Numbered from the stretch's first letter, positions 12,451 through 60,254 are shown. The stretch is DNA of 64,000 bases from Candidatus Bathyarchaeota archaeon (GCA_963815095.1 CAWFFH010000003.1:256001-320000), one strand, 5' to 3'. Translations and numbers: made by a program. The notes: a model not told the origin generated them from the letters alone.

Positions 12451-12472
12451 CTCGTAAAAGACTCTTAACTGA
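12451..12472. promoter_or_regulatory. Palindromic motif copy CTCGTAAA-AGACTC-TTAACTGA
   Basis: Matches TTAGTCAA-N6-TTGACTAA family; 5 bp from TATA of the FN3 gene; overlaps stop of 12465..12824. Confidence 0.6.
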
Positions 12473-12824
12473 GGTTAGTCAAATTTCTATTCAAATTCAA
12501 GGTAGATTTAAGGCGTATTATTATTTTCGTAATGACCGGTTCCTCCACAAGAGCTATTAAAATTAAGCTAACAAAAAAAACAACAGTCGAACCAATAACT
12601 AACAGAATATAGGACAATTGTGTTCCATAAAATCCCAGGACTATATGGGAGAAAATCATAAAACTATTATGAGGTATGTTAATTCTTAAGTCAGCCTGTC
12701 CATAAAATAACTCTAAAAAATAGCTATCATCATGAGCATAATCATTAACTAAAAAATACGCCATTGGAACTATTGAAACTAGTGCAACAGAACACCGAAG
12801 AGCTAATTTGAATATTTTCTTCAT
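12465..12824 (-). CDS. Hypothetical membrane protein
   Basis: 119-aa ORF with two hydrophobic segments. Confidence 0.55.
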   Translation of the reverse strand: MKKIFKLALRCSVALVSIVPMAYFLVNDYAHDDSYFLELFYGQADLRINIPHNSFMIFSHIVLGFYGTQLSYILLVIGSTVVFFVSLILIALVEEPVITKIIIRLKSTLNLNRNLTNLS

Positions 12825-12930
12825 CCTTAGCCCTTAATAATATACTAACAGTAGATTGAAAAAGATTATCTTACGCTAAAACATCAGTTCTTAGTGTACT
12901 TGCTAGAATTAAAGAAAAAATTAAGCATAT

Positions 12931-13122
12931 TTAGAGCATATTTGCGGCTGTTCCATAAATGAATGCAATCATCAAAATTATTCCCGCAATAACGCTTAGC
13001 TTAAACAGAATAGAGTAAATTTTTTCTGTTTTTCTTAACTTCCATAAGACAGCTAACCATGCAATTACAAAAACCAATACAAAAAGGATTGAGATTGGAA
13101 AAGGAATCAGTTCAAATGCCAT
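12931..13122 (-). CDS. Small 2-TM membrane protein
   Basis: 63-aa ORF, two helices around a basic loop. Confidence 0.6.
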   Translation of the reverse strand: MAFELIPFPISILFVLVFVIAWLAVLWKLRKTEKIYSILFKLSVIAGIILMIAFIYGTAANML

Positions 13123-13168
13123 AAATTAGGTATTTACCTTTTATCTATTTAAGTTAAATTAGATTTAG

Positions 13169-13246
13169 TGGTGGGGCTCCCCGGATTTGAACCGGAGTCT
13201 ATAGAGCCCAAGTCTACAAGCCTAGACCAAGCTAGCCGAGAGCCCC
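13169..13246 (-). tRNA. tRNA-Pro(UGG), intron-less, CCA encoded
   Basis: Reverse complement folds: acceptor GGGGCTC/GAGCCCC, anticodon arm GTAGA-CTTGGGC-TCTAT, T-loop TTCAAAT, 3' ACCA. Confidence 0.95.
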
Positions 13247-13399
13247 ACTGTGGTGCAGAGAACATAATTTCAGCTGAACCATAAAAACCTTAGCCACCCG
13301 TGCTTAAGATTTAGGGTTTAGGGGTTACAAATTTGTAGGGATTTTTCTTGGAAATTAATTCAGCGTATCATATTTAGATCTGCGAAATAGCGGTTAAGT

Positions 13400-15184: not shown

Positions 15185-15395
15185 CTTGTTTTTTCTCCTT
15201 CAATAATTTTGATGATTGGTGAATTATTATAACTGTTAATTGATAAATAATCATTTAACAAGGTATTTGTTTAAGGTTTGGTTTAATAAAAGTCGTTTAG
15301 ATGGGGCTTTAATTGAAACATAAATCCTTTAAAAAACCAATGCACTAAAATGAGAATAAAACCTGTTCACTTTTCTTAATGGGGCTTCATCCTCT

Positions 15396-16835
15396 TCATT
15401 TGTGTTTTTTACGGTAAAAAAGTATCCCAGCAATTACTAAGACAATAAAAGTTATAGAAGCAGCAGCAATAGCAACAACGGGAAAAGACTCTGGTTCTGG
15501 TTTAGCTACAGTGAAACTGGTAGTTTGCGATGAACCTATGTTTCCGAATGTGTCTTGGGCGTAAACTGTTATGTTATGTAAACCGTTTGAAATGTCAGTT
15601 AGGCTTGTGTTGCCAGAAAAGGTTACGTTTTGTTGTCCATCAAGACTATAGCTTGTCCAGTTAACTGCTTTATTACTATTGAAAACTAAAGGTACACTTG
15701 ATTCGTTGTAGTTTTGGTTTATTGGTGATGTGACGTTGATTTTTGGTGGAGTATTTTCTGTTGGCGGTACATAAGATGGGTCAGGAGTGCCATACCCAAA
15801 GGGAGTATACATTTCAACTGCAGTAGACCTAACATAGGTTGTGTCAAACCAAGTCGAACGTTCTGAAATTGTTCCACCAATAGAATACAACCTATCATCT
15901 AACACAGCAACGGCACCAACTGCACTCCCATTTAAAATCGCCATATTGCTCCAAGTGTCCAGCTTAGGGTCATACACTGCACCTTGAGAACCGACAAAAT
16001 AAATTCTTTTAGGAGCTAAAACTCCAGTAGTGGCTGCCCCAACTGGGTAAGTTCCTAAGGAAACGTACAGTTGTTTGCCTTGACTCCACGTATTGTTTTC
16101 AGTTTCATATACCATCATAACAGTGATTCGACCTGTTGGTCCTGAATAGCCACCTGCAGAACTCATAACGTAAATTTTGTTATCAACTGCAACTGCAGCG
16201 TAATAGGGAAACACAGAATATGAAACACCCCAAAAAGACAGCTCCGAGGGCATAGGTGACTTAGATGACCAAACATCAGATATAGGGTCATAAACCCAGT
16301 TGGAAGTTCCGCTGAAAACGTAGATTTTGCCGTTTACCACATTAGCAGTAGGTGAACCAGAAGCTGCTGGCATTGGTGTTTTGGTTTCCCAAGTGTCTGT
16401 TAAAGTATTATACACTTCATTTACGTTTGTGACGTTGGAGTCATAGCCAATTTGACCATTTGCTATTCCACCTATGCAGTAAATCTTGTCCCGAAAAACT
16501 GCAGTAGCAAAATTACATCTTGGATTTGGCATTGGTGATTTAGTAACCCAAGAATTAGTGTTTGGGTTATATTCTTCATTTGTACCTACAACGCCACCTG
16601 TGTCTTTTGAGCCTGTAGAAGATTGGACGGTGAGGTCGGTACCTCCTATAGCGTAGATTTTGCCATTCACTGATGCAACACCAAGAAAATCTCTTGCTTG
16701 ATGCATTGGTGCCTTCTCCACCCAAGTATTCTCAGAGGCAGTGACTCCAGAAACAGGCATAGCTAAAATTATGGATGACGCTGTTAGGAAGACCAGAACA
16801 AGTGCTAAAGCTAAAGGTTTACTCATTACCACCAC
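15396..16835 (-). CDS. Secreted Kelch-repeat protein with Ig-like domain and C-terminal anchor
   Basis: Repeats GKIYAIGG...YNP.T.SW..K.PMP; shared Ig module; PEPESFP-TM-RKKHK. Confidence 0.88.
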   Translation of the reverse strand: MVVMSKPLALALVLVFLTASSIILAMPVSGVTASENTWVEKAPMHQARDFLGVASVNGKIYAIGGTDLTVQSSTGSKDTGGVVGTNEEYNPNTNSWVTKSPMPNPRCNFATAVFRDKIYCIGGIANGQIGYDSNVTNVNEVYNTLTDTWETKTPMPAASGSPTANVVNGKIYVFSGTSNWVYDPISDVWSSKSPMPSELSFWGVSYSVFPYYAAVAVDNKIYVMSSAGGYSGPTGRITVMMVYETENNTWSQGKQLYVSLGTYPVGAATTGVLAPKRIYFVGSQGAVYDPKLDTWSNMAILNGSAVGAVAVLDDRLYSIGGTISERSTWFDTTYVRSTAVEMYTPFGYGTPDPSYVPPTENTPPKINVTSPINQNYNESSVPLVFNSNKAVNWTSYSLDGQQNVTFSGNTSLTDISNGLHNITVYAQDTFGNIGSSQTTSFTVAKPEPESFPVVAIAAASITFIVLVIAGILFYRKKHK

Positions 16836-16858
16836 TTCATTGTTGAAAGGGTTTGTAA

Positions 16859-16927
16859 TAAAAGACTTCTTGTCAAGGAATCTGGACTAAACCGGTTTTT
16901 CTAAGTCAAGAATTATGAACTAACTGT
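16859..16927. repeat. ~69-bp promoter repeat with two palindromes (16869-16890, 16902-16923); near-identical copy at 22912-22980
   Basis: CTTGTCAA-GGAATC-TGGACTAA and TAAGTCAA-GAATTA-TGAACTAA, 33 bp apart. Confidence 0.9.
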
Positions 16928-17023
16928 TCTTGCGTTAGTCTTTTGCTTCCTTTAGTCTTTTGAGAAAGTTCCTCAGGTTGACAAGACTAAGAGATGCAAA
17001 AACTATACACCTTAACTGTTGTT

Positions 17024-17404
17024 TTACTCCATTTCCTTTATGGAAATTGCGACTCCACATTTTTTCAGAAGATCCGTGTCTGCGGTGACTAACTTGAGGT
17101 TTCCTTTTTCCGCTAAATAAGCGTACGAGGCATCGTAGAAAGTTAGATGTCGATTTACTGCTAACTCTAAAACGTTGGCCAACGAGTCAATCTCCAGTTT
17201 TTTTAAAGGCGCAAGGGCTTCTGAAAAAATGGCAGCTATCCTTGCTGGGTCTTTGAGTTTCTTTTTCTGGTTCTCCTTCCACAGGACGTTTCCTATCTCG
17301 TATTCTGTTAGGGTGCTTACTGCGCATTCTTCAGGGTTGTATGGGTTGCCAGAAATTAACAGGGGATAGAGTGCTGAGGTGTCTATGAGGTATTTACATT
17401 TCAT
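17024..17404 (-). CDS. vapC: VapC-family PIN-domain toxin
   Basis: YLIDTSAL, TEYEIGNVLWK, LTFYDASYAYLA, LVTAD. Confidence 0.92.
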   Translation of the reverse strand: MKCKYLIDTSALYPLLISGNPYNPEECAVSTLTEYEIGNVLWKENQKKKLKDPARIAAIFSEALAPLKKLEIDSLANVLELAVNRHLTFYDASYAYLAEKGNLKLVTADTDLLKKCGVAISIKEME

Positions 17405-17624
17405 GTCTTGTCGCTTTGACGTCAGATACCCACTCCTCAGCTTTAACGTCCATTAGGCTATCGAGTTCTTTAGCTATTTTCTTTGCTTTAGCTTTCTTAT
17501 CAGCCACCAAGTCTTCGAGAAGCTGCTCTATCTCCACTTTTAAGTCGACTCCTAGCTTCTCAGCTTCATCTTTGAGGCTTTTTTTGACCCTTACAGATAG
17601 AACCTCAGTCAACGTATACACCAA
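17394..17624 (-). CDS. VapB-type antitoxin (RHH-like)
   Basis: VLSVRVKKSLKDEAEKLGVD; overlaps vapC start. Confidence 0.85.
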   Translation of the reverse strand: MVYTLTEVLSVRVKKSLKDEAEKLGVDLKVEIEQLLEDLVADKKAKAKKIAKELDSLMDVKAEEWVSDVKATRHEM

Positions 17625-17640
17625 CTAAATAATGTATACA
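17614..17640. promoter_or_regulatory. Probable TA autoregulatory operator (two GTATAC palindromes)
   Basis: GTATAC at 17614 and 17634, between antitoxin start and TATA box. Confidence 0.55.
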
Positions 17641-17745
17641 AACAACCTATAAAACTTTACGAAAAAACCCCAAAACAGCTCATACTAGTTGTTTTCTTAA
17701 ATTGACTTCCATTTTTGCACTAATGCCATATTGTTTTGACTTTAC

Positions 17746-18612
17746 TTAAAAACTTTTTAAAATAACAATTGAATGGTTAAACTGTTTTCTTTTTGTGTTT
17801 TTCAGGTAGACCAACAAACCAGCAACCACCAAAGCAACTACTGCAACAGAAACAGCGGCAACGGCGATTGTTGAAAGAGGCATCGGTTGCTGAACGGTGA
17901 AGGTTTTTTCAGCCATCGCAGATTGATTAAACACGTCTTTCGCATAAGCCGTCAAAGTATGCGTGCCTTCAGATAAGCCAAATAAAGTTACATTGTACAC
18001 GTACGAATCCAAAAACGATGCTGATTCGTTTTGAGGCAAAGTCACGTTTGCTCCTCTGTCAAGGCTGTAGGAAACGGCTGAATCAAACTCGTTAGTGGTT
18101 ATGTTAAACATTGCTTGGTTTGCTTTGTATACGTCTAAACCTGAGATTGACATTTGGGGTTGAATCTCTCGATGAATAAAGAAATCGACTGATAATGAAG
18201 GATAAAGGTGATAAAAAACAGTAATCCATGTGCTTGGGCAATAATACAGGTCTAAATCAACTCTTATTGTATGTTTACCTTGGGTTAAATTCGTCAAAAT
18301 CAAATTTAAATTTGCATCAAGTACTTCATTTCGTCTACTGCTGATGTTTTGCTGGTTTTGATTACGGAGGTCTCCATCTAAATAGACATTATAAGATATT
18401 GTCTCGACCCAAACATAGTCGGCTTTCTTCGTGACGGAAAAGTGCAGATTTATACTAGTTCCGTTAATTATTTCTCCTTCATCTGGGTTTTCAATAGCTA
18501 CGCTAAAACCTTCTGCTTGAGCATTTGCGCAGTCAATAAACGACACGGGAAAAACTAAAAGCAACACGACTAAGATTGCGGCGTGTTTTTTCAGTTTGAA
18601 CCCTGACCTCAT
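17746..18612 (-). CDS. Secreted Ig-like domain protein with C-terminal TM anchor
   Basis: Signal peptide, NLTQGKHTI and YSLD...GLSEGTHTL modules, AGLLVYLK tail. Confidence 0.75.
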   Translation of the reverse strand: MRSGFKLKKHAAILVVLLLVFPVSFIDCANAQAEGFSVAIENPDEGEIINGTSINLHFSVTKKADYVWVETISYNVYLDGDLRNQNQQNISSRRNEVLDANLNLILTNLTQGKHTIRVDLDLYYCPSTWITVFYHLYPSLSVDFFIHREIQPQMSISGLDVYKANQAMFNITTNEFDSAVSYSLDRGANVTLPQNESASFLDSYVYNVTLFGLSEGTHTLTAYAKDVFNQSAMAEKTFTVQQPMPLSTIAVAAVSVAVVALVVAGLLVYLKNTKRKQFNHSIVILKSF

Positions 18613-18726
18613 TGGCGCACCTTAGAATCTTTAACTGTTGATAAGATATTTAGTTCTATTCAAGGAACAGAATGTTCCAATAATGGAACAGACACAAGTT
18701 TCTTGATGTACTGACTCTCGAATAAA

Positions 18727-20523
18727 CTATTTTTGCCTGCGTTTTTTGTCGTAAACCAACAAACCAGCAGTCGCCAATAACACAACTACGAGAGCCATAA
18801 CGATAACAATCAATGTTGGAAAACTTTCTGACTCCGTTTCCTTACTCTGTATAGTCCCTGAAAGTTCCTGAGGGACCTCAGTTGAAGGCAACTCAATAGC
18901 ACTGAACTCATTTGGAGATAATATTGGATAGTAGTCTATGTTACGGTCAGTTATTTTGTATGCTCCTTGCGCGGTTGAGTTGTTGTCGCTCCAGAAATTG
19001 CCAACCGAACCATTGTCCCAAGCATTATAGCTGGCGGCATACTGAGGAAACACAGTGGAGTTTTCGTTGTAGCCTTCATCGCCCTTCCAAACAAATCTTC
19101 CTTTAATCGAGACTTGGACGCTGCCGTTGTTGTTGTCTATGAAATTGTTGAGGTAGAAGCTGCTATTTTTTATGTCATTGTATATTATTATGGCAAAATT
19201 GGTGTTTTGAGCGAGGTTGTTCTCTTTTGTGGTGCACCAAGAAAGGTCACCCATTCCCATCTCTATACCTGCCTTATTTTTTGATATGTCGTTTCCAGTT
19301 ATCGTAACGTTAATGCCATTTCGGAAGCATAATCCGCCCTCTCTGTTTTGCGTAATATTGTTTTTGCAAACAATTGAGTTTGACATGTCCCAGAAGTAAA
19401 CCCCATGTTGTCCATTACCCTCAAGGTAATTCCCAGTAATGTTGCATCCTGTTCCTGCTTGTATTCCACAACCACTATTTGCGATTATTAGGTTATTTGA
19501 AATAATAGCGTTTTTCGAACCGCTGATGCTGTAACCGGTGCTGTCTATTCCACCTCCGTTAGCCCTGATTAAGTTGTTTGCGATGGTCGTGTTTTCTGAA
19601 TCATATTGTTCGATCGCGTCGTTACTGTTATTGGTTAATTTATTGCCGATTATCAAGTTGTTGGAGGAGTTGCGAAGGGATACGCCGATTTCGTTATCTG
19701 TTAATGTGTTTCCGTAAACTTTGCAATTGCTCGAGTTAAAAAGGGAAATTGCCGTATATGCATATTTAATGTCCAAATTAGGAACTATTATGTTACTGCA
19801 GCCTTCAAGATGAACCATACTTGCGTCGGCTGGCACAGTTATGTTTTGTTGGTTAATTAGGTAGTAGATTGGTTTACCGTTGATTGTATTCGACACATCT
19901 ACGTCACTTTTTTCGTAGGTCAAGTCTTCAAAATTAATTGTGTTGTTTTTCATTTGGTTATTTCTGAAGAGATTTTCTGAACCGAAAAAAGTTATGCCTA
20001 TCTCGTTATTCATTACTTGGTTTCCTATGATTCTGCATTCTATGCCCCCGACGATTGATATTCCATTGGTGGTGTTTGAAATTTTACAATTATTTATAGT
20101 GCAGTTGGTCGATCGGTTGGGGTTTGGGTCATACCACAAAAAAGCTTCTGGATCCCTATAATGACCGAGCAGAATACCAGTCTCAAAATTTTCTACATTA
20201 ATGTTTTTTATGGTAACGTTGTTTTTGTCGTAAAGAGCAATACCTGTGGAATTTCCTTTTCCTTTTAATGTGAAGCCTGCTCCGTCAAGCACAATGCCAT
20301 TACGCTCGATGGTAATGTCTCCTTCTATGTTTCCCTTGAGCGTGTAGGTGGTTCCGTCTCGGGTGATGTTTGGAGCGTTGCATTCTCCGTCTGAGTAGAT
20401 TTTGTAATTCTGAAGTGTGTTTGCAAATGTTGGAGAAGCATTAATTTGGGATAGGCTGCTTTGAAACCAAATCGGTGAAGTAAACAATGCCAACGCAAAG
20501 ATTGCCAGTAGTAACTTCTTCAC
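18727..20523 (-). CDS. Secreted right-handed beta-helix (NosD/CASH) protein with C-terminal anchor
   Basis: Many Asn-rich N.I..N..GI repeats, N.WDNG..GNFWSD, ESFP-TM-KKRRQK. Confidence 0.88.
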   Translation of the reverse strand: MKKLLLAIFALALFTSPIWFQSSLSQINASPTFANTLQNYKIYSDGECNAPNITRDGTTYTLKGNIEGDITIERNGIVLDGAGFTLKGKGNSTGIALYDKNNVTIKNINVENFETGILLGHYRDPEAFLWYDPNPNRSTNCTINNCKISNTTNGISIVGGIECRIIGNQVMNNEIGITFFGSENLFRNNQMKNNTINFEDLTYEKSDVDVSNTINGKPIYYLINQQNITVPADASMVHLEGCSNIIVPNLDIKYAYTAISLFNSSNCKVYGNTLTDNEIGVSLRNSSNNLIIGNKLTNNSNDAIEQYDSENTTIANNLIRANGGGIDSTGYSISGSKNAIISNNLIIANSGCGIQAGTGCNITGNYLEGNGQHGVYFWDMSNSIVCKNNITQNREGGLCFRNGINVTITGNDISKNKAGIEMGMGDLSWCTTKENNLAQNTNFAIIIYNDIKNSSFYLNNFIDNNNGSVQVSIKGRFVWKGDEGYNENSTVFPQYAASYNAWDNGSVGNFWSDNNSTAQGAYKITDRNIDYYPILSPNEFSAIELPSTEVPQELSGTIQSKETESESFPTLIVIVMALVVVLLATAGLLVYDKKRRQK

Positions 20524-20570
20524 CGCTTTGTCCTCAAGTAAACCTCACCAAGTAAATCCTTTAAAGTGTT

Positions 20571-20629
20571 TTCGTCAAGATTTCTTGACTAACCCAGAAA
20601 ATTACTTAGTCAAACTTTCTTGACTAAGT
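20571..20629. repeat. Two palindromes: TTCGTCAA-GATTTC-TTGACTAA and perfect ACTTAGTCAA-ACTTTC-TTGACTAAGT
   Basis: Read directly; second copy encodes the LVKKV* end of the upstream gene. Confidence 0.9.
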
Positions 20630-21413
20630 TGAATTTATGTTTTTTGTGGCAAACTAACAAACCAGCAGCCACCAAGGCAACTGCTACAGTAAAAACAGCG
20701 ACAACAGGCACAACAGTAAAAGACTCTGGTTTAGCAATAGCTACGGTGAAGCTGATTGTTTCAGACGCGCCCATATTCCCATAGGTATCGTTAGCATAGA
20801 CAGTAACGTTGTGCAACCCATTTGGCAAACCATTGAGGGTGAAATTGCCGCTGATGGTGCTGTTTTTTTGGCCGTCGAGGCTGTAGCCTGTCCAATTAAC
20901 TTTATCGACTGTGAACATCAAGGGTACGTTTGTTTCTGTGTATGTCTGATTTATGGGTGATAGCGCCTGGATCTTGGGCGTGGTTGTTTCCACTATGAAG
21001 TGGACTGTTTCACTATCCCAGCAACTGGGTCCGGTTACCCAGTGGGCTTCCACATAGACAGATAATGTGTGTGGTCCGTCGGAGAGCTCTGGGAGCATCA
21101 CAGATCCAATCACTCGGTTCTTGCTCCATATCATCGAAGGAGAGACCACAAGTGACACATTGATGTTGGGTGTTCCGTCCAGACTGTAGGTAGCTGATAA
21201 ATGAATTGGTGAGAAGAGCTTGGTTGAAAAACTGATGTTAAGCGTGACTATTCTTGAACTGTATGTGGTGTTGACTGGAAACAATATGTAAGGTCCTGTT
21301 GCAAGGCGGGTTCCACTGTCATCAAATATGTCCGCTTTGATGGGGAGAGTCAAGGCTGAAGCTAACAAGAAAAGCGCCACGACGAATGCTAAGGCTAATG
21401 TTATTCCCTTCAT
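20610..21413 (-). CDS. Secreted Ig-like domain protein with C-terminal anchor (start probably MKGITL, 21413)
   Basis: Signal peptide; two YSLDG...G.H..VY modules; KPESF-TM-KKHK. Confidence 0.78.
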   Translation of the reverse strand: MKGITLALAFVVALFLLASALTLPIKADIFDDSGTRLATGPYILFPVNTTYSSRIVTLNISFSTKLFSPIHLSATYSLDGTPNINVSLVVSPSMIWSKNRVIGSVMLPELSDGPHTLSVYVEAHWVTGPSCWDSETVHFIVETTTPKIQALSPINQTYTETNVPLMFTVDKVNWTGYSLDGQKNSTISGNFTLNGLPNGLHNVTVYANDTYGNMGASETISFTVAIAKPESFTVVPVVAVFTVAVALVAAGLLVCHKKHKFNLVKKV

Positions 21414-21583
21414 AGTTTCCAGATGAAGTGAGCTCTTAGATGCATTTAGCTCTCCCCAGAGAACAGCCTGTTCCGCTAAGAGAACGCTTCGTTCCTCTAA
21501 AAGAGTAATATACATCTTACTGCAGCGATATTAATTGTGAAAAGACATGAATAAAATAGCTCTTGTGCTAACAATGGTAGTAA

Positions 21584-22877
21584 TTATCTGTTTGATTTCT
21601 GCTGCCATAGTTGCTTACAATCAGTTATTTTGTCAGTCTCAGTACTTTCGAGGGGATAAACCAACAAACCAACAACCACCAATGCAACCACTGCCACAGA
21701 AACAGCTAATACAGTTACAGTTGGAAAAACTTTTACGTTAAAGTGCAGTGTGTTTGGAGCACTGAAAATTCCATATTGATCCTTTGCGTAAATAGTCACA
21801 TTATGTTCTCCACTGGGCAAGTTATCCAAAGCAAGTGATACATTTGAGTCTGTTAGTTACATTGGCTTGATTATCTAAAGAGTAAAGAATTTGTGAAACA
21901 GGTTTATTCACAGAAAAATCCAGCACAACCTTAGCGGTATCATAGGTTTTGTTTTGGATCGTTGTAAAAGAAATTGTTGGAAGGATACTATCTATCGTAA
22001 AATTAACTGATGCAGAGCTGCCAATGTCATAAACATAAGAGGTGTTTTCAGATACAAAATTTCCCGCTCCAGCAGCAAAAACGGTTATTGTATGATTTCC
22101 CTCAGACATTCCAGTTAAAGAATCATTGAAGAAATTAGTTGAAGAGGTATTGTTTAAGTGGTATTCGGAGTTATTATTTTTTTCCCAAGCGACTTGGTAC
22201 CAGACGTCAGTAAGGACCGATGCATCTTTTGATGTGGTGGCTTTGAATGATAAAGAAACATTGTTGGCGGTAAAGATTGTGCTGTTTGGAGAGTATATTA
22301 TAATTTTGGGCGGTATAGCGCCTTCTGGTGCAGATACAGACCCGCCCCAAGCATATTGGTCATCGTTTACGTAGAATATTATCCTTGACGAATTACCTAT
22401 AACCGTATTGTGTGTGTAATCGTCAGTCCAATAATCGTATTGTCCTTCCGCGCTAACAGACATTGTATGTAATCCTTGAGAAAGCCCATTCAGCGGTAAT
22501 ATGTAGTTTAAAGTTGCTGGAATTGGATGTTCGGATAATCCGGTGTAGTTGTCGTTTGCAGGAATTGTAACAGGTGGTTGTCCATCTATGCTGTATCGAA
22601 TATAGTTTACTTTACCTTGGCAATCATAGTTGTAGAGAATTGCTCCTGAAGTAAACCATGATGCGGGTTTGGTTACTGTTAACTTTAGCTCAAAGTCTGG
22701 ACCGTAAACGTGGTTTTTTAGTGGATTTAAGACTGTGATTGAGAGTGGAGTAAAATCTGGGCCTGAATTCATAACTGGCCCCATTTGAGCAAAAGCACTG
22801 TCCAAAATTGATAACTGCGCTATCATCAATAACAGGAGCACTGAAAAGAACGTTATCACTACAGCTTTTCTATTCAT
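21584..22877 (-). pseudogene. Secreted multi-Ig-domain protein split by frameshift near 21855
   Basis: Third Ig module YSLDNQANVT continues as DNLPSGEHNVTIYAKD in another frame; basic tail also disrupted. Confidence 0.75.
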
Positions 22878-22911
22878 ACATACCTAACTTTACTTTTGAA
22901 TTGCCTGACCT

Positions 22912-22980
22912 TAAAAGACTTCTTGTCAAGGAACCTGAACTAAACCCGTTTTTCTAAGTCAAGAATTCTGGACTAACAGT
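22912..22980. repeat. Second copy of the ~69-bp promoter repeat, palindromes at 22922-22943 and 22955-22976
   Basis: CTTGTCAA-GGAACC-TGAACTAA and TAAGTCAA-GAATTC-TGGACTAA; about six mismatches to 16859-16927. Confidence 0.9.
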
Positions 22981-23085
22981 CATTTGGAAAATACTCATTT
23001 ACCAAAGGCCTTCATTTTCATCATAACTGAATATTAAAAAACTTATAACGGGCTTTTTACCTAATCTCAATTGGAAGTTATTGAT

Positions 23086-23253
23086 ATGGATGGTCCTCAA
23101 TTGCCAGTTACTCCCAGGCTGTGTGATAATGTTGCTTCTCCATGTTCAAGATGTGACAATGCAGGAGAAGAGGGACCAAAAGACCCTATACTTTGCGAAA
23201 AATGTGAAAAATTCAAAACTTGGGAAGAAAAAGAGTGCTCTCCAATAGATTAG
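23086..23253 (+). CDS. Small Cys-rich (zinc-finger-like) protein
   Basis: CSRC...CEKC plus two more Cys; TTATAA upstream. Confidence 0.55.
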   Translation: MDGPQLPVTPRLCDNVASPCSRCDNAGEEGPKDPILCEKCEKFKTWEEKECSPID

Positions 23254-26822: not shown

Positions 26823-28202
26823 TTAGTCTAAACAAACATGTACTTTGGTTTTTCGACGCTTAAAAACCAATGCAACAAAGAGCAGTGAAAGAAGCAAAGG
26901 CACAACTACAAACCATGATAACTCCCTAACGGTGGGAGTTGGCGATGAGGTTGGCGTTTGTGATGGGAGTTCTGATGGAATTAGGATTATTTGAGGCTGA
27001 GGAGGAAGGTTTTGAGTCCATTGTGGCAAGTAAATTGGAACGTCGTCGATATTGACTTGATTTGTTAATGGAAAATTATCTTGTCCGAAGATAATGCTTG
27101 TATAGTTGATAGTCCCGTGCTCATATACTGTCTCGTTGAGCAAATAGGGAGTATCCCATATGCCATCCCCGTTCAAATCAATATCTTTGTATTCTTCCCA
27201 GAAATTGCCGCGTGTTCCGTTATCCCAATAATTCGTTTCAGGTCCATTTGGGAAGTATTGCCTGAAGTTAGGGTCGCTGTACTGGTCGTAAATGTAGTCA
27301 TGTCTCCAAGATGGGTTTCCCATGAAGTTGTTGAGAAAGAACTCATTTCTTGACGACATACCTAAACTAATGCTATGGGTTAGTGAGTCATTAATGGTGT
27401 TTGCTTGAACTATATTGTCTAAAGAGTACCAGAACCTAAATCCCATTTGGTAGCCTGAAATTCGGTTTTTATAAAAATAGTTGTTATTGCTCCAAGTCAT
27501 GTCTATGCCACTGTAGCCAAGTGAGCTGCTCAAAATGCTGTTAGCTAGAATTACAGTGTCTGTTGTATTAGCTAAGCCAATAGTCTGTTGGACATTATTG
27601 TTTTCTACAAGGTTAAATGATCCGTATAAATAGATGTTTTCTAACGTATTACCTCTGGCTTGGTTATGGTTTCCGTTGAGTTGAACCAGTCCACGCACTG
27701 AACTATCAATTATTTGGGTATACGAACCGTTAACTTGAAGCCCAGTTGAGTAGCCAGAAATTACATTGCAACCAACAACCTGCAGCTGATCGCCCCTTAC
27801 AGAAAGATCTCCGCCTGGGTCATGCATAATTATTGTTAAGTTTTGGAATTTGCATCCGTCAGCTAAGACGGTTATGCCATCTGAATAGTCATAAAGTCCA
27901 GTTGTGAAAATCCAAGTCACATTGAAGGCTGGAAATAAAGTAATTATAACGCCTTGTGTACTTTCCCCGATAATAGTTAACGTTTTATCAATTATTATTG
28001 TCTGGTTAATTGGTCCGTTGTAGTTACCATTTCTAAAATAAATTGTGTCACCGCTAGTTGAATTTCCTATAGCTGAGGTAATGGTTGAATAATCATCTGG
28101 AACAATAATTGTTTTAGTTTGGGCTTTGACCGTGATGGATTGGGGCAAAAATAATGGAGGAAGAAACAGCAGAATAAGTAGCAATACTAAACTTCTTTTC
28201 AT
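26823..28202 (-). CDS. Secreted NosD/CASH beta-helix protein with degenerate PEF-CTERM
   Basis: IIVPDDYSTI..AI, NYWDNG.RGNFW..Y...D.NGDGI.DTPY; PTVRELS-TM-KRRK. Confidence 0.85.
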   Translation of the reverse strand: MKRSLVLLLILLFLPPLFLPQSITVKAQTKTIIVPDDYSTITSAIGNSTSGDTIYFRNGNYNGPINQTIIIDKTLTIIGESTQGVIITLFPAFNVTWIFTTGLYDYSDGITVLADGCKFQNLTIIMHDPGGDLSVRGDQLQVVGCNVISGYSTGLQVNGSYTQIIDSSVRGLVQLNGNHNQARGNTLENIYLYGSFNLVENNNVQQTIGLANTTDTVILANSILSSSLGYSGIDMTWSNNNYFYKNRISGYQMGFRFWYSLDNIVQANTINDSLTHSISLGMSSRNEFFLNNFMGNPSWRHDYIYDQYSDPNFRQYFPNGPETNYWDNGTRGNFWEEYKDIDLNGDGIWDTPYLLNETVYEHGTINYTSIIFGQDNFPLTNQVNIDDVPIYLPQWTQNLPPQPQIILIPSELPSQTPTSSPTPTVRELSWFVVVPLLLSLLFVALVFKRRKTKVHVCLD

Positions 28203-28245
28203 TTTGACCTGATTCAAAAGTAAATGTGTTTTCCATAAAAGCTTT

Positions 28246-28291
28246 TTTGTATAGGTTTCTTGACTAAGCTAAATCAAAGGTTATTGACTGG
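28246..28291. repeat. Two palindromes TTTGTATA-GGTTTC-TTGACTAA and TAAATCAA-AGGTTA-TTGACTGG (24 bp apart)
   Basis: Read directly; proximal copy 5 bp from TATA. Confidence 0.8.
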
Positions 28292-30710: not shown

Positions 30711-31426
30711 CTATATCCATCCTCTGCGTTTGAAAATCAATGCAAGAGTTGAAGCTACAGCAGCCATTATTGCAATCATAATATAGAAGCCATAGGGATT
30801 TGTGACTTCAGGAATTTGCCCTGGCCTGAAGTTTGTTCCATATATTCCAGCAATCAAAGTTAAATGAAGAAAAATGGCTGAAATTATTGTTAAAACTCTG
30901 ATTATGTTGTTTGTGTTTATTGTTTGAACGTTAACAAGGATGTCACGGATGTTGCTCATTTCTTCTCGGTGAGAATCAACGACATCTACTAACTGGATTG
31001 TTCGGTCCTGGTTACCAAATCCATGAAAATATACAACATAATATCAGTTGAATGGACAAAGGACAGAGAAAAATAACGTGCGCACCAATTTTTTGTAGAC
31101 GGAACATGTCAAAATCGGATAAGCCTTTATGAACAGTGATTAGCCATTTTGAGCAAACAAGCATCGCAATTCGCTCCATTTTGGCATCAGAAATAAAGCC
31201 GTCTCCATGCGGAAAATAAAGAAGACAAAACATGCAGCCTTCATGTTCATCTATTCTTGAAAGTTCCCCTTCTTCACGCAGTTCTTGAAGGTCATGTTCG
31301 TCTAAGTTAAAATAATTTTTTAGCTCATTCATTTCGTCATCGGTTGGATCTTAGGCATCAAACCATAGAACTTGTTCTTTGCTTATTTCTTCAGGGAGAA
31401 CCAAGTTTTCTGATTGCCATCGTCAT
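30711..31426 (-). pseudogene. corA: Decayed CorA-family Mg/Co transporter
   Basis: LTIIS.IF..LT.IAGIYGTNF tail; N-terminal WFDA*DPTDDEM with in-frame stop; frameshifts and internal loss. Confidence 0.8.
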
Positions 31427-31643
31427 TCTTCATGTTGCTTGAGCAAAGTAATTGTTAGCAGATGCTATCCCAATTACTAAACAAGAATTCTCCTTTGTAA
31501 ACCTAACCATTATCTTCGTAAAAAAGGTCTGTTTCTTGCCCAAGAACCATCCAACGGCAATCAAATTGACTATGAAAGCATTTTTATTAGAATGTAGAAG
31601 GATATTTGGGTAACCTGATTTCACAACAAGGCGACTGCTAACA

Positions 31644-33257: not shown

Positions 33258-33541
33258 AAAATCAAACTTCGACAAATTTAGCGTGGAAAAAATCCGTCTG
33301 TTTTGACCATGTGGCAAGGGAATAAAGTTTATAATAAGAATACTAGTCAACCACCCAACTTACAACTTATATGGCCTTTTTTCGCGCCTTTAGCTTCAAG
33401 CGAATAGAACTTGAAATTTTCACCATAATTATCAAAAGAGATCCTAATATAATTCTTAATTAGGCTAGAAAATTTTGGGATTATTATTACGCAAGTTGAG
33501 AAAGAAGTATTGACACAGCTGGTTAGTTCTAAGTCACACAA

Positions 33542-34444: not shown

Positions 34445-34784
34445 TCAATAACCTTTTTACAAACAGAACTGTTCACCTTTTAACCATAACGCTCACTGAA
34501 TTTCTTTTGTATGTTTATGAAAGAGCAAATTTAGATCGCTGCGACACTTATTGAGCAAACTTCAGTGGCTCCATCTTGACCGTGTTCGTTAACATGCTTA
34601 GCAAAAAAATGCAAGTTAGTATCGAAAATCCTGATAATTATCTGCTATTCTATCAATATTATTTTGAATTATTCTGTAATTTTAGGGGTTGCACGTTGGG
34701 GTTACAAAACCTTTGGATTTTCTGAGAATTAGATATTTTGTGTTTATAACAAAAAAAGAGAAAGGGAGTTTTGGTTGTGTTTTT

Positions 34785-58619: not shown

Positions 58620-58781
58620 CCCTTTATCCCCCTTTAGATTAAGAAGTTGTTAAATGAATTTAGCGCGATCAAATATTAAACTAACCCGGCTAAAAAAACG
58701 CTTTTTTCAGGCGTTTCTTCCATTCTTATAATGGGTTGTTTGACAAACGTTGCACACTAATTACAGTCGTAATTTGATTTT

Positions 58782-58981
58782 TTAGCTTCGTGGAACGACT
58801 ACCAAGAAGAGTTCGGGCGCCATGTCTGTTTTTGTGTATATTGCTAATGCTATGCTCCAGAAGCCGTCGTAGTGTGTACCTTGAGGATATGAGAAGCCGA
58901 TGTTGCCGTCTCTTCGCAGGTAATAGCGTCCACTTCGAGTTCAGTTTCCTCTTGAACTGTCCATCTTTTGCGAGGGGTCAC
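58782..58981 (-). pseudogene. Probable relic of a viral terminase large-subunit C-terminus
   Basis: RYYLRRDGNIGFSYPQGTHYDGFWSIALAIY resembles the terminase G.HDD...ALA motif; frameshifted and truncated. Confidence 0.5.
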
Positions 58982-59157
58982 CGATGATACTCAATTGTTT
59001 GCTCACTCACTTTAGCTTATAAATTATTAGATAAAGACCGAAAGCACAAGAACTGTACAACAAAAAAACCATCGACAAATAACAAAAAGGTCCACCTTGT
59101 GACCCCAATAGGCTACTTAGACGAACTATTCATTAAAGAAATTCTGGAAAAAAATAA

Positions 59158-59307
59158 TTATGAAATCGTCCTTTTAGATTTGGATCTTATGTTCCGCGAT
59201 TCATTATCTTCGTCAATTATTGCTTCGGGATTCTTAGCTTTTCTTTTTAAATAAGCCTCATATTGCTTTGCTGTAAAATCTTTCCTAAACTTATCGTCTT
59301 TGCCCAA
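59158..59307 (-). CDS. 49-aa charged microprotein (not in ORF track)
   Basis: TTG start with AGGTGA RBS; MGKDDKFRKDFTAKQYEAYLKRKAKNPEAIIDEDNESRNIRSKSKRTIS. Confidence 0.55.
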   Translation of the reverse strand: MGKDDKFRKDFTAKQYEAYLKRKAKNPEAIIDEDNESRNIRSKSKRTIS

Positions 59308-59329
59308 ATTTTTTTCACCTACTTTTGGA

Positions 59330-60172
59330 TTAGTGCTTTTCTACTAACAGGGGGATATCATCAGTTTTTTTATGCTTAAGCTTAAGTAGGATTGCAACAG
59401 AGAGCAACGAAATAAACAAGGGCAAAATTGCTAACCATGAAAACTCTGGAACGGAAGGAGTTGGCGTTAGATTTGGTGTGGGCGAGGTTGAAGCAGAAGT
59501 TTCAGGTATAGTAATTGTTTGTGTGTGGCTCCAGTCACTTGACTCACCGGTAAACATTGGTACTTCTCCTCCAAGTAGTGGATGGTCTGGACCGCCCATA
59601 GAAACCCATTCATTATGGTAATATCCAAAAATAGCTTGCACTCTAAAATCCACTTCACCACCAGGCGATACATAACCCATTTGTGGGGATACAGTGTCAG
59701 CGTATCCACCACGAGCGTATCCGCCGTTATCATATGCCCCATAAACAAAATTTCGTACTGAATATTCAGAATTTGAAGCAGGATATGTTTCACCGTAAGA
59801 AGTCGGATAGTAAGTCCAGTTTCCTCCGTAATGAGGTTTTACACTGATATTATAGAACAAACCAATGTTTCTGCCACTTGCATCTTCATACGACGTGAAA
59901 GGTTGGTTATCTATTCGGACTTCTATAGTTTTGTTGATTACGTGGTATCCAGGTTGAGTTTGGGTAGTTGTTTTGCCAGTATAAGGGTCAGTGGTTGAAG
60001 TTGTTTTTGCAGGAACATCATAAGAATGGTCGGCGATCTGTAGAGTGAATTCTGGAACTGATGGTTTTGGTATTGATTGAGCATTTACAGGTTTAACTGT
60101 CAATAAAGTTAGACATGACATAGCGGCAATTAGAGTCAGAAATATTGCGAAAGTCTTGCCAATTTTACCCAT
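59330..60172 (-). CDS. Secreted protein with PEF-CTERM anchor
   Basis: Signal peptide ending NAQS; PKPSVPEFT; VDFRVQA..G; SDWS.TQTITI; VPEFS-TM-KLKHKK. Confidence 0.85.
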   Translation of the reverse strand: MGKIGKTFAIFLTLIAAMSCLTLLTVKPVNAQSIPKPSVPEFTLQIADHSYDVPAKTTSTTDPYTGKTTTQTQPGYHVINKTIEVRIDNQPFTSYEDASGRNIGLFYNISVKPHYGGNWTYYPTSYGETYPASNSEYSVRNFVYGAYDNGGYARGGYADTVSPQMGYVSPGGEVDFRVQAIFGYYHNEWVSMGGPDHPLLGGEVPMFTGESSDWSHTQTITIPETSASTSPTPNLTPTPSVPEFSWLAILPLFISLLSVAILLKLKHKKTDDIPLLVEKH

Positions 60173-60208
60173 GCTTAGTAATATGTACAAAAAGGCGATA
60201 AAAGGCTA

Positions 60209-60254
60209 TTCGTAAACGTTTCTTGACTAAATCCAGTTAAGGTTTCTTGACTAA
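60209..60254. repeat. Two palindromes TTCGTAAA-CGTTTC-TTGACTAA and CCAGTTAA-GGTTTC-TTGACTAA (24 bp apart)
   Basis: Read directly; proximal copy 5 bp from TATA. Confidence 0.85.

What the first reader, a model, noticed from the sequence alone, without database searches (positions are those of the whole stretch)
12451..60254. Undescribed 22-bp palindrome (TTAGTCAA-N6-TTGACTAA) marking surface-protein genes: regulon or dif/Xer-like cassette system
Seen: copies start at 12451, 16869, 16902, 20571, 20606, 22922, 22955, 28246, 28270, 60209 and 60233, with degenerate or half copies near 11640, 11693, 18656 and 26823. All six loci lie upstream of secreted, C-terminally anchored protein genes (FN3, Kelch, two NosD, Ig, PEF-CTERM); I saw none at housekeeping genes. 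At all six the proximal copy begins exactly 5 bp from the edge of the TATA box. Five loci are paired (24, 33 or 35 bp apart). The 6-bp spacer is asymmetric and always in the same orientation relative to the gene (GGTTTC, GATTTC, ACTTTC, CGTTTC, GAATTC, GGAATC). The best copy has perfect 10-bp arms. Known: ~11-6-11 geometry is that of Xer/dif tyrosine-recombinase sites, and archaeal activators bind next to BRE/TATA. Inference: either a dedicated dimeric regulator of a large surface-protein repertoire, or recombination sites bounding promoter-carrying gene cassettes. No recombinase is encoded in this window.
Basis: partly seen in the sequence, partly recalled or inferred. Interest (0 to 1): 0.88.

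Follow-up and report, generated by a model that had tools for sequence, protein, structure and literature searches.

The report
Promoter operator of archaeal surface-protein regulon
A 22-base palindrome sitting just upstream of the TATA box marks about forty promoters of secreted, membrane-anchored proteins in this soil archaeon and its relatives, so it is most likely the docking site of a transcription factor and not a recombination site.

Summary
The palindrome is real and far above chance: 8 matches in the window against 0.71 expected. Genome-wide, 44 loci carry a strong copy. Consensus in gene orientation is TTAGTCAAG-AAAY-CTTKACRAA.

The promoter-proximal copy ends 5-6 nt before a TATA-like box. 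A second copy lies 24-25, 32-35 or 43-45 bp upstream. Downstream genes are strongly enriched for signal-peptide proteins: 26 of 37 against 260 of 2376 genome-wide.

The motif recurs in 18 of 18 genomes of the genus and in 36 of 151 genomes of the family. It sits at the same kind of genes in another genus.

Arms vary without compensation. None of 10 indel or divergence breakpoints against a 93%-identical relative falls in a site. This fits a transcription-factor operator, probably an activator site abutting BRE/TATA, and not a dif/Xer or cassette site.

The regulator is not identified. A Cys4, three-winged-helix protein family is a lead. One paralog carries paired sites in its own promoter in 7 of 7 close relatives, but the single-copy homologue in other genera has none (0 of 20).

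Four "degenerate" copies and the "always oriented" spacer are not supported.

The parts
12451..12472 (-). single promoter-proximal operator copy (TCAGTTAAGAGTCTTTTACGAG) of the fn3-like gene
   Evidence: 20.4 bits. Followed by AAGCC and then TTATAATG. A right-arm remnant, TTTGACTAA, lies just upstream.
12438..12445 (-). TATA-like box of gene 11831-12415
   Evidence: Octamer TTATAATG starting 5 nt after the site. The ATG lies 35 nt after the site end.
11831..12415 (-). 194-aa secreted protein with weak fn3 similarity and a C-terminal LPEF...TM...RRK anchor
16869..16890 (-). proximal operator copy of the Kelch gene
   Evidence: 28.3 bits. Followed by AAGTC and TTTTATTA.
16902..16923 (-). distal operator copy, 33 bp from the proximal one
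   Evidence: 20.0 bits. The 69-nt module is 91% identical to the one at 22912-22980.
16856..16863 (-). TATA-like box of the Kelch gene
15396..16835 (-). 479-aa secreted Kelch beta-propeller protein with a C-terminal TM anchor
   Evidence: Pfam Kelch_1 2.1e-30. N- and C-terminal hydrophobic segments.
20571..20592 (-). proximal operator copy of the NosD/beta-helix gene
   Evidence: 33.4 bits. Followed by AACAC and TTTAAAGG.
20606..20627 (-). distal operator copy, 35 bp away; the best palindrome in the window
   Evidence: 0 mismatches and 30.9 bits. It overlaps the 3' end of ORF 20610-21515.
20558..20565 (-). TATA-like box of the NosD gene
18727..20523 (-). 598-aa secreted right-handed beta-helix (NosD-like) protein with a C-terminal anchor
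   Evidence: Pfam Beta_helix 2.9e-30, NosD 3.3e-25
22922..22943 (-). proximal operator copy of the 351-aa gene
   Evidence: 23.4 bits. Followed by AAGTC and TTTTAAGG.
22955..22976 (-). distal operator copy, 33 bp away
   Evidence: 27.3 bits
22909..22916 (-). TATA-like box
21822..22877 (-). 351-aa secreted protein with no Pfam or NCBIfam hit. It is followed on the same strand by ORFs 21584-21826 and 20610-21515, a possible operon.
28246..28267 (-). proximal operator copy of the second NosD-like gene
   Evidence: 29.5 bits. Followed by AAAGC and TTTTATGG.
28270..28291 (-). weak distal copy, 24 bp away
   Evidence: Only 5.8 bits. Counted as a site by position alone.
28233..28240 (-). TATA-like box
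26823..28217 (-). 464-aa secreted NosD-like protein with a C-terminal anchor
60209..60230 (-). proximal operator copy
   Evidence: 31.3 bits. Followed by TAGCC and TTTTATCG.
60233..60254 (-). distal operator copy, 24 bp away
   Evidence: 28.9 bits
60196..60203 (-). TATA-like box
59330..60190 (-). 286-aa secreted protein with a VPEFSWLAILPL...KLKHKK C-terminal sorting-signal-like anchor
   Evidence: no Pfam or NCBIfam hit

Best explanation
The 22-mer is the operator of a sequence-specific transcription factor. In gene orientation it reads TTAGTCAAG-AAAY-CTTKACRAA: 9-bp arms and a 4-bp R-W-W-Y spacer. It defines a regulon of about 40 promoters that drive secreted, mostly C-terminally anchored surface proteins (Kelch and PQQ beta-propellers, NosD-type beta-helices, and many families without a name).

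Each promoter is a fixed module. An optional distal copy comes first, then a proximal copy whose last 2 nt plus a 5-nt linker (consensus AANNC) fill the positions where the TFB-recognition element lies. A TATA box follows (mostly TTTTAT), and the start codon lies about 30-45 nt after the TATA start. The distal copy sits 24-25, 32-35 or 43-45 bp upstream, in steps of about one helical turn.

Shown here: the over-representation of the motif, its register to the TATA box, the class of genes downstream, its conservation across genomes, and sequence rather than structure conservation.

Inferred from the positional rule for archaeal regulators: the factor binds the strong distal-facing half-site and a weaker half-site next to BRE. 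Two bound units cooperate on one face of the helix. They activate transcription by helping TFB/TBP onto the promoter.

The factor itself is not identified. The best lead is a Bathyarchaeia-specific family of about 315-330 aa. In an AlphaFold2 model and weak profile matches it has four invariant N-terminal cysteines, three winged-helix domains and a long C-terminal helix. In this genus a fast-evolving paralog of it belongs to the regulon.
For: Over-representation:
- 8 window matches against 0.71 expected.
- 73 genome matches to the symmetric arms (up to 4 mismatches) against 15-20 in five Markov-simulated genomes.
- 60 of those 73 are intergenic, although 84% of the genome lies in ORFs of my crude ORF map.

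Geometry:
- A second arm is found only at offset +13 from the first: 77 cases, against 7-14 at neighbouring offsets.
- TATA-like hexamers peak at +27/+28 from the arm start: 24 and 12 cases, against 1-13 at other offsets.
- In 24 regulon promoters, position -1 before the TATA is C in 96% and position -4 is A in 100%.
- In 835 ordinary genes of this genome, TATA-like hexamers peak 30-48 nt upstream of ATG. Regulon genes fall in the same range.
- Distal-copy spacings are 24 (10 cases), 32-35 (8) and 45 (1) in this genome. In genome G092 they are 25 (2), 33-35 (9) and 43 (8). None lies between these classes.

Gene class:
- Of 37 downstream ORFs of 100 aa or more, 26 look secreted, against 260 of 2376 genome-wide (odds ratio 21, p=9e-18).
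- 19 of the 37 have both an N-terminal signal and a C-terminal anchor, against 99 of 2376.
- Pfam finds Kelch in 4, NosD/beta-helix in 5 and PQQ propellers in 2.

Conservation:
- A stringent pattern hits 18 of 18 genomes of the genus and 0 of 12 genomes of other families of the order. The reversed-pattern control gives 1 hit.
- It hits 36 of 151 genomes and 15 of 70 genera of the family, with 5 control hits.
- In G092, another genus, 17 of 20 site groups precede proteins with an N-terminal signal, with the same 5-nt linker and TATA.

Protein-binding type of conservation:
- 181 of 183 arm deviations destroy complementarity.
- The arm next to the TATA is the more degenerate: 2.18 against 0.57 mismatches, p=1e-4.

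Positional rule: archaeal activators typically bind immediately upstream of BRE (passages read in PMC5512572, and PMC4158304).

Regulator lead:
- Gene G000:C3:649366-650349 has the best site pair in the genome in its own promoter, 30.4 and 27.1 bits.
- The pair is kept in 7 of 7 orthologous promoters while the flanks diverge.
- In G005 and G017 the only pattern hit in the genome lies upstream of this gene's homologue.
- The AlphaFold2 model has mean pLDDT 80.5. Its residues 60-149 match the ArsR-family regulator CzrA at Z 12.6, rmsd 2.0 over 84 residues.
Against: No binding, footprint or expression data exist. No RNA run is on record for this organism.

Activation rather than repression rests only on position. 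The A-rich stretch before the TATA resembles the genome's ordinary promoters. The 'weak BRE needs an activator' argument therefore cannot be made, and a repressor that blocks TFB remains possible.

The regulator lead is weak:
- In 20 motif-bearing genomes of other genera, the single family member has no site within 500 nt upstream (0 of 20).
- Neither the protein nor the profile finds a homologue in 5 motif-bearing genomes, including G004 (21 sites, 92% complete) and G079 (19 sites, 95% complete).
- The co-occurrence of the motif with close homologues is confounded by relatedness.

Eight of the 37 downstream ORFs of 100 aa or more are not secreted-type (citrate synthase, a Rad51/KaiC-like protein, a glyoxalase and others). 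Most of these sites lack the TATA register.

Gene calls come from my own crude ORF map, not from a gene finder.
Confidence: 0.8

Rival explanations
1. The same operator is used for repression. The factor bound at the proximal copy sits against BRE and keeps TFB off, so the surface-protein genes stay silent until a signal releases it.
For: The proximal copy ends 5 nt before the TATA, so its last bases overlap the BRE positions. The BRE-like A-rich stretch and the TATA are close to the genome's general promoter profile and could be strong on their own. Many archaeal regulators repress by steric hindrance at the promoter (passage in PMC5512572).
Against: The sites lie wholly upstream of the TATA. 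A second copy lies 24-45 bp further upstream, in helical-turn steps. That is the layout reported for activators: TGM boxes upstream of BRE/TATA activate and those downstream repress (PMC4158304). No copy was seen over the TATA or the start site.
Confidence: 0.13
2. The copies are dif/Xer-like or integron-like recombination sites that bound mobile, promoter-carrying gene cassettes.
For: The arm-spacer-arm geometry is superficially like 11-6-11 sites. The region is dynamic: against a relative with 91-96% identity, segments holding surface-protein genes are gained or lost, for example window 10721-13156 and 1.2-kb and 4-kb inserts in the relative. The genome encodes tyrosine recombinases, with 3 hits over the Pfam cut-off.
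Against: None of 10 breakpoints lies in a site and only one lies within 60 bp of one. The 2.4-kb indel carries its site in the middle and abuts a tRNA-Pro gene instead. There are 60 or more copies, all in register with a TATA box. Arm changes are uncompensated and the proximal arm is degenerate. No recombinase gene lies in the window, and the four in the genome lie 10 kb or more from any regulon locus by coordinates. No junction at a site was seen in metagenome contigs, though coverage was too thin to count.
Confidence: 0.02
3. There is no dedicated factor. The shared sequence is only the remnant of promoters copied along with duplicated paralogous genes.
For: Some promoters are clearly copies: the 69-nt module at 16859-16927 is 91% identical to 22912-22980. 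Several downstream genes are paralogs (Kelch and NosD families).
Against: The similarity stops exactly at the outer edges of the sites and at the TATA, while the genes downstream are unrelated (Kelch against a protein with no family). The motif precedes at least 5 unrelated domain families and 18 proteins without a family. It is kept across 15 genera, and in orthologous promoters whose flanks have diverged.
Confidence: 0.03
4. The palindrome acts as a nucleic-acid structure: an RNA hairpin or terminator for the upstream gene, or a DNA cruciform.
For: Perfect copies could form a 9-bp stem. Some copies lie directly after, or overlap, the stop of the preceding gene (20606-20627 and ORF 20610-21515).
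Against: Only 2 of 183 deviating arm pairs are compensatory, and no site among 65 keeps all 9 pairs. Most copies follow no gene on the same strand. Position is tied to the downstream TATA and not to an upstream stop codon. No Rfam family matches apart from a tRNA.
Confidence: 0.01

Closest known systems
Archaeal activator sites immediately upstream of BRE/TATA: EarA boxes of the fla promoter, the TFB-RF1 site of pf1089, the Sulfolobus ara-box
   Same: A sequence element abuts BRE at a fixed distance and is thought to help TFB/TBP recruitment. EarA likewise controls a cell-surface structure. Sources: passages of PMC5512572, and the search listing with the start of the abstract for PMC5937170 and PMC10665913.
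   Different: Those elements serve one or a few promoters, and EarA boxes are 6-bp repeats. Here a 22-bp palindrome serves about 40 promoters, usually with a phased second copy. The known cases depend on a weak BRE, which is not evident here. Neither the factor nor activation is shown.
TrmBL1/Tgr with the Thermococcales glycolytic motif (TATCAC-N5-GTGATA)
   Same: A palindromic operator found at many promoters defines a regulon, and its position relative to BRE/TATA decides the outcome (upstream means activation). Source: passages of PMC4158304.
   Different: The sequence, arm length (9-4-9) and gene class differ (surface proteins, not sugar metabolism). All strong copies here lie upstream of the TATA. 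The candidate factor is not a TrmB-architecture protein: TrmB Pfam hits appear only in the precomputed domain lists of homologues.
Ptr2 upstream activating sites of Methanocaldococcus jannaschii
   Same: Two adjacent palindromic sites upstream of the TATA act through TBP recruitment. Ptr2 is named as such an activator in PMC4158304; the two-site detail is recalled, not read here.
   Different: Ptr2 is an Lrp-family protein serving a few promoters. No Lrp link was found here.
Xer/dif recombination sites
   Same: Imperfect palindrome with a short central spacer.
   Different: A dif site is one per replicon and is cut in the spacer. Here there are 60 or more copies in promoters, with no breakpoint in any of them.
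Invertible promoters of Bacteroides surface molecules
   Same: Inverted repeats are associated with promoters of a large surface repertoire. Source: search listing and start of the abstract of PMC7641763.
   Different: There the repeats flank the promoter, which flips. Here both palindromes lie upstream of the TATA, so an inversion between them would not move the promoter.

Membership tests
Archaeal transcription-factor operator / upstream activating site adjoining BRE-TATA | Fixed position immediately upstream of BRE/TATA | tested here: met
   TATA-like hexamers peak at +27/+28 from the arm start. In 24 promoters a 5-nt linker is followed by TTTTAT-type boxes. The general TATA position in this genome was checked on 835 genes.
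Archaeal transcription-factor operator / upstream activating site adjoining BRE-TATA | Over-represented, and enriched upstream of a coherent set of genes | tested here: met
   over-representation; 26 of 37 against 260 of 2376 secreted-type, p=9e-18
Archaeal transcription-factor operator / upstream activating site adjoining BRE-TATA | Conserved between species more than its flanks, at the same class of genes | tested here: met
   18 of 18 genomes of the genus; 15 of 70 genera; G092; 7 aligned orthologous promoters
Archaeal transcription-factor operator / upstream activating site adjoining BRE-TATA | A cognate factor binds it and changes transcription | not testable with these tools
   No binding or expression data. 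The candidate family has evidence for it and against it.
Xer/dif site | One site per replicon, near the replication terminus | tested here: not met
   73 symmetric-arm matches and 44 strong loci spread over 6 contigs
Xer/dif site | Strand exchange in the central spacer, seen as rearrangement breakpoints | tested here: not met
   0 of 10 breakpoints lie in a site in the comparison with G031
Xer/dif site | Bound and cut by a XerA-type tyrosine recombinase | not testable with these tools
   Tyrosine recombinase genes exist in the genome. None is in the window.
Integron-like gene cassette array | Recombination sites at cassette boundaries, next to an integrase | tested here: not met
   Sites lie only on the promoter side and in register with the TATA. 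Indel ends are not at sites. No integrase is in the window.
Invertible (phase-variable) promoter | Inverted repeats flank the promoter segment | tested here: not met
   Both copies lie upstream of the TATA at all paired loci
PEF-CTERM / archaeosortase substrates (the downstream proteins) | C-terminal PEF motif, TM helix and basic cluster recognised by the family model | tested here: inconclusive
   PEF occurs in the last 50 aa of 7 of 43 regulon proteins, against 28 of 2376 ORFs. No NCBIfam model was hit at E up to 0.01 in the 10 proteins scanned. The family name is recalled.
PEF-CTERM / archaeosortase substrates (the downstream proteins) | An archaeosortase gene in the genome | tested here: met
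   G000:C3:696680-697477 matches Pfam Exosortase_EpsH at 51.1 bits and TIGR04178 at 57.7 bits against a cut-off of 23. The subtype models (artC, thaumarchaeosortase) score below their cut-offs.
ArsR/SmtB-type winged-helix regulator (the candidate factor) | Winged-helix fold and sequence signature | tested here: inconclusive
   Sequence hits are below the cut-offs: NCBIfam HTH_metalloreg 30.8 bits against 55, Pfam HxlR 19.6 against 20.8. HTH_45 scores 31.0 against a cut-off of 25.5, but no single stretch passed. Model residues 60-149 match CzrA at Z 12.6, rmsd 2.0 over 84 residues. There is no whole-chain match (best Foldseek E 0.02).

The most novel reading that the evidence does not exclude
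The palindrome is the operator of a Bathyarchaeia-specific regulator family: an N-terminal Cys4 module, three winged helices and a long C-terminal helix. In this genus a fast-evolving paralog has been placed under the operator itself. This would give a positive-feedback switch that turns a block of about 40 surface-protein promoters on or off.

A second part of this reading concerns gene turnover. Every member shares the same promoter and signal-peptide end, and many share a conserved anchor-coding end. New surface genes could therefore be swapped in by homologous recombination, which would explain the rapid turnover of this repertoire between near-identical genomes.
Probability: 0.25. Interest if true: 0.65.

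Novelty: new member of a known kind. Interest (0 to 1): 0.5.

Why it matters
Bathyarchaeia are abundant and uncultured, and I found nothing in print on how they regulate genes. Searches listed no paper containing the word Bathyarchaeia among those shown. One search found no paper with both Bathyarchaeia and archaeosortase.

The motif gives a sharply defined cis-element that can be read from sequence alone. It ties together about 40 otherwise unannotated secreted proteins as one co-regulated surface programme. It has a strict promoter grammar: register to BRE/TATA, and a second site in steps of one helical turn. Candidate factors could be synthesised and tested by gel shift or DAP-seq without a culture.

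It also gives a practical marker for finding the surface repertoire in related genomes, which carry up to 76 copies per genome at 2 mismatches.

Tried and rejected
Tools not available:
- Complex prediction, intended to test homodimerisation of the candidate factor, was not available.

RNA and read evidence:
- No RNA holder is listed for window 15300-23100.
- Laying four soil-metagenome contig sets on that stretch gave only 150-460-nt pieces and no joint at a site. This is too thin to count either way.

Other regulator candidates:
- DUF7347 winged-helix plus TM proteins lie next to regulon genes in this genome. They have only weak single sites, and no homologue lies in the 83 kb around G092 sites or in the other related loci scanned. 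Dropped as weaker than the Cys4 family.
- I listed 167 non-secreted neighbours of regulon loci and looked through them by eye. This showed scattered Lrp-, PadR- and HxlR-like genes but no recurrent family (not scanned against Pfam).
- Looking for an autoregulated factor in G092 found secreted proteins, a radical-SAM gene and short or absent ORFs, but no DNA-binding protein.

Internal repeats: hhalign between the three predicted winged-helix segments gave no significant match (E 0.012-0.17).

Spacer orientation: my relaxed half-site plus TATA filter let in mostly noise (86 hits), so its proximal-spacer count is not used.

Literature: no search listed a paper on this motif or on regulons in Bathyarchaeia. 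PEF-CTERM occurs in 3 papers, none on Bathyarchaeia. The 8-mer half-site alone is not over-represented: 147 copies against about 141 by my hand estimate from base composition (count).


Full report
**Observation**

The window lies at G000:C3:256001-320000 of a 2.69-Mb, 9-contig genome. Its nearest named relatives are records titled 'Candidatus Bathyarchaeota archaeon'.

The pattern TTAGTCAA-N6-TTGACTAA with up to 3 mismatches occurs 8 times in the window. 100 dinucleotide shuffles give a mean of 0.71 and a maximum of 3.

All listed genes are on the minus strand. Read in gene orientation, the copies are TTAGTCAAGAAAYCTTGACNAA, then 5 nt, then a TATA-like octamer.

The copy at 28270 scores 5.8 bits. 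The four 'degenerate' copies (11640, 11693, 18656, 26823) score 1.9 bits or less. Pair spacings of 24, 33 and 35 bp are as stated.

**It is a genome-wide promoter element**

- The 8-mer half-site alone is not over-represented (147 copies). The two-arm arrangement is: 73 matches to TTAGTCAAG-N4-CTTGACTAA with up to 4 arm mismatches, against 15-20 in five first-order Markov simulations of the genome.
- 60 of those 73 are intergenic, although ORFs cover 84% of the sequence in my own greedy ORF map. That map is not a gene finder.
- Starting from single arms (814 occurrences with up to 1 mismatch), a second arm appears only at offset +13 (77 cases, against 7-14 at offsets 10-17). TATA-like hexamers peak at +27 and +28 (24 and 12 cases, against 1-13 elsewhere).
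- A matrix scan gives 92 places in 63 loci at 14 bits or more, and 44 loci whose best site reaches 19 bits. Six of those 44 are in the window.
- In 835 ordinary ATG-start genes, TATA-like hexamers are enriched 30-48 nt upstream of the start codon. Regulon genes start mostly 18-58 nt after the site end. The TATA assignment therefore agrees with the genome's own promoter geometry.
- In 24 regulon promoters with a strict TATA hexamer, the preceding bases read ACRARAANNC, with C at -1 in 96% and A at -4 in 100%. The general promoter profile is only mildly A-rich there.

**Architecture**

The arms are really 9 bp with a 4-bp spacer that is itself symmetric in type (R-W-W-Y; counts).

The arm next to the TATA is the degenerate one: 2.18 against 0.57 mismatches, Wilcoxon p=1e-4. 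This is expected if its last bases must also serve as part of BRE.

It does not hold for TATA-adjacent copies (15 against 11, p=0.56).

Distal copies sit at start-to-start distances of 24 (10 cases), 32-35 (8) and 45 (1) in this genome. In genome G092 they sit at 25 (2), 33-35 (9) and 43 (8). None of these 38 spacings lies between the three classes, although distances of 20-49 and up to 60 were open. Steps of about one helical turn suggest that the two bound units must face the same way. This last point is my inference.

**Genes served**

Of the 44 loci, 43 have an ORF of 50 aa or more starting 15-400 nt downstream. The other locus runs off a contig.

Of the 37 ORFs of 100 aa or more:
- 26 have an N-terminal hydrophobic segment and no internal one, against 260 of 2376 ORFs genome-wide (odds ratio 21, p=9e-18).
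- 19 also have a C-terminal hydrophobic anchor, against 99 of 2376.

Pfam finds Kelch propellers in 4, NosD/right-handed beta-helix in 5, PQQ-type propellers in 2, one weak fn3 and one membrane ferredoxin. It finds nothing in 18.

Seven proteins end in a PEF motif followed by a TM helix and basic residues. The curated C-terminal models were not hit. The genome does encode an exosortase/archaeosortase-family protein.

Eight downstream ORFs are not secreted-type: citrate synthase, a Rad51/KaiC-like protein, a glyoxalase, a DUF7347 protein, the candidate regulator and three others. Most of their sites score 19-21 bits and lack the TATA register.

**Conservation**

- The pattern TTAGTCAAGAAANNTTGAC with up to 1 mismatch hits this genome 30 times. 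It hits 18 of 18 other genomes of the genus and 0 of 12 genomes from other families of the order. The reversed-pattern control gives one hit in all.
- Across the family it hits 36 of 151 genomes in 15 of 70 sampled genera, with 5 control hits. One 1.5-Mb genome has up to 60 hits, or 76 at 2 mismatches.
- In that genome (G092, another genus), 18 fetched regions gave 20 site groups with a downstream ORF. Seventeen have an N-terminal signal and 11 of those also have an anchor. The linker (AACGC) and TATA register are the same. Further loci there add more secreted proteins and one radical-SAM gene with a triple site.

**Operator or structure or recombination site**

Among the 65 sites, 183 arm positions depart from the consensus pair. 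181 of them lose complementarity and 2 are compensatory. What is kept is sequence, as for a protein-binding site, and not a hairpin.

A relative with 91-96% nucleotide identity (G031) is collinear with window 6727-36000 except for five indel or divergent segments and one local rearrangement. None of the ten segment ends lies in a site, and one lies within 60 bp of a site.

The 2.4-kb segment present only here (10721-13156) carries the fn3-like gene and its site in the middle. It ends 13 bp from a tRNA-Pro gene. Two divergence boundaries coincide instead with the conserved anchor-coding repeat.

The genome has tyrosine recombinase genes, but none lies in the window. The cassette model is therefore not supported. 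The turnover of these genes looks like ordinary indels, perhaps helped by homologous ends.

**Mechanism**

Archaeal activators typically bind immediately upstream of BRE and help recruit TBP or TFB, while repressors overlap the promoter or lie downstream. The same palindrome activates when upstream of BRE/TATA and represses when downstream (passages in PMC5512572, and PMC4158304).

All strong copies here end 5-6 nt before the TATA, and second copies lie further upstream. I therefore favour an activator. This step is inferred, not shown. A repressor that blocks TFB is the main rival, because the BRE-like stretch does not look weak.

**Who binds**

The only cytoplasmic DNA-binding-type protein behind a top-scoring pair is G000:C3:649366-650349 (328 aa). 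Its sites score 30.4 and 27.1 bits and lie 24 bp apart.

What the protein looks like:
- The family has 975 members at E up to 1e-5. Where a source names them, they are called only 'predicted transcriptional regulator', 'HxlR family' or 'winged helix-turn-helix domain-containing protein'.
- An alignment of 35 homologues has invariant C28, C31, C39 and C43.
- Weak profile matches fall in three separate winged-helix regions.
- The AlphaFold2 model (mean pLDDT 80.5, pTM 0.66) shows an N-terminal helical part, three helix-turn-helix-plus-hairpin modules and a helix spanning 282-323.
- Residues 60-149 superpose on ArsR-family repressors (CzrA Z 12.6, rmsd 2.0 over 84 residues). No whole-chain match exists.

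Evidence for the lead:
- The site pair and the TATA are kept at the same place in 7 of 7 orthologous promoters while the flanks diverge.
- A second clade of the genus has a single strong site 180-210 nt upstream.
- In G005 and G017 that is the only stringent hit in the whole genome.

Evidence against:
- The tree shows these motif-bearing genes are fast-evolving offshoots of a conserved paralog that never carries the site.
- In 20 motif-bearing genomes of other genera, the single family member has no site within 500 nt (0 of 20).
- Five motif-bearing genomes have no detectable member at all. The two paralogs are linked on one contig in several genomes, so one missing contig could explain some of these absences.
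- The association between motif-rich genomes and close homologues is confounded by relatedness.

I therefore rate the family as a lead, at roughly one in three, and the factor as unidentified.

**Comparison and novelty**

This works like known archaeal upstream activating sites and palindromic regulon operators (EarA, TFB-RF1, the ara-box, TrmBL1/TGM, Ptr2).

It is a new member of that kind rather than a new kind. It has a new sequence and a new and unusually large target set of surface proteins, and it lies in an uncultured lineage. The phased two-site grammar is a notable detail.

My searches found nothing in print on it. I saw only listings and abstract starts for those searches, and passages of the two papers cited for the positional rule.

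Noticed in passing
window 10721-13156 and 13169-13246: A 2.4-kb segment holds two or three small secreted-protein genes, including the fn3-like gene with its operator. It is absent from a 93%-identical relative. It ends 13 bp from the 3' end of a tRNA-Pro(TGG) gene, a typical integration spot, but no integrase lies in it.
   Followed up: partly
window 15406-15470, 17798-17862, 18743-18807, 20641-20705, 21648-21712: A 65-nt direct-repeat family (63-80% identity) encodes the C-terminal TM anchors of neighbouring surface proteins. Two boundaries of divergence against the close relative fall in these repeats, hinting at exchange by homologous recombination.
   Followed up: partly
window 17024-17621: A PIN-domain gene with a small upstream ORF, a likely toxin-antitoxin pair, sits between two surface-protein genes.
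   Followed up: no
window 30711-31329: CorA-like Mg transporter similarity is split over two short ORFs of 81 and 105 aa. This is probably a broken gene. Near here the alignment to the relative breaks at 31007/31008, where the relative carries about 250 extra bases.
   Followed up: no
window 31509-34571: The order of two blocks is swapped relative to the close relative G031: 31509-33268 (ABC transporter genes) and 33428-34571 (cation-efflux gene).
   Followed up: no
G000:C3:575335-575356; C3:1183685-1183730; C3:1464164-1464219: Three strong sites or site pairs have a TATA-like box in register but no normal gene behind them. The first has no ORF of 50 aa or more until 173 nt downstream. The second precedes a 59-aa Cys/His-rich ORF. 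The third precedes a 55-aa two-TM ORF ending in KKSKN.
   Followed up: no
G092 loci L130-L134, L143 (e.g. G092:C32:210-243, C10:51-84, C83:4179-4212): A different layout was seen at six loci: two copies overlapping at a 15-bp offset (the scan called both copies at L130 and L131; at the others the pair is seen in the pattern hits). They are followed by the usual linker and TATA. The loci at the ends of contigs C10 and C83 share identical downstream sequence, as if this were the start of a repeated element or multi-copy gene.
   Followed up: partly
G092 locus L137 (G092:C6:20033-20117): A triple site precedes a 351-aa radical-SAM-type protein (CxxxCxxC near the N-terminus). This is the only clearly cytoplasmic enzyme behind a strong site in that genome, and it may be a maturase for the surface proteins.
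   Followed up: no
L041 and L073-L078, about 20-70 nt downstream of the TATA of the candidate regulator gene: The roughly 70-nt leader of the regulator paralog keeps a T-run followed by a G/C-rich inverted repeat (GGGTGG...CCATCC-like) in several species. This may be a second regulatory layer.
   Followed up: no
G000:C3:29119 and C9:54428; C4:10531 and C6:89350: Identical site-plus-flank sequences occur on two contigs each, which points to recent duplications or a repeat that breaks the assembly. The C4 copy of the second pair encodes a truncated 177-aa version of the 330-aa C6 protein.
   Followed up: no
G000:C5:161231-161911, C6:95774-96271, C6:96647-97351, C3:1065536-1066300: Four of six paralogs of a DUF7347 winged-helix protein lie next to regulon genes, two with weak single sites. 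Three of these four also show C-terminal TM segments by eye; the C6:95774 copy is shorter (164 aa) and its C-terminus was not examined. The HTH-plus-membrane architecture recalls the membrane-bound archaellum regulators of Sulfolobus (recalled, not checked).
   Followed up: partly
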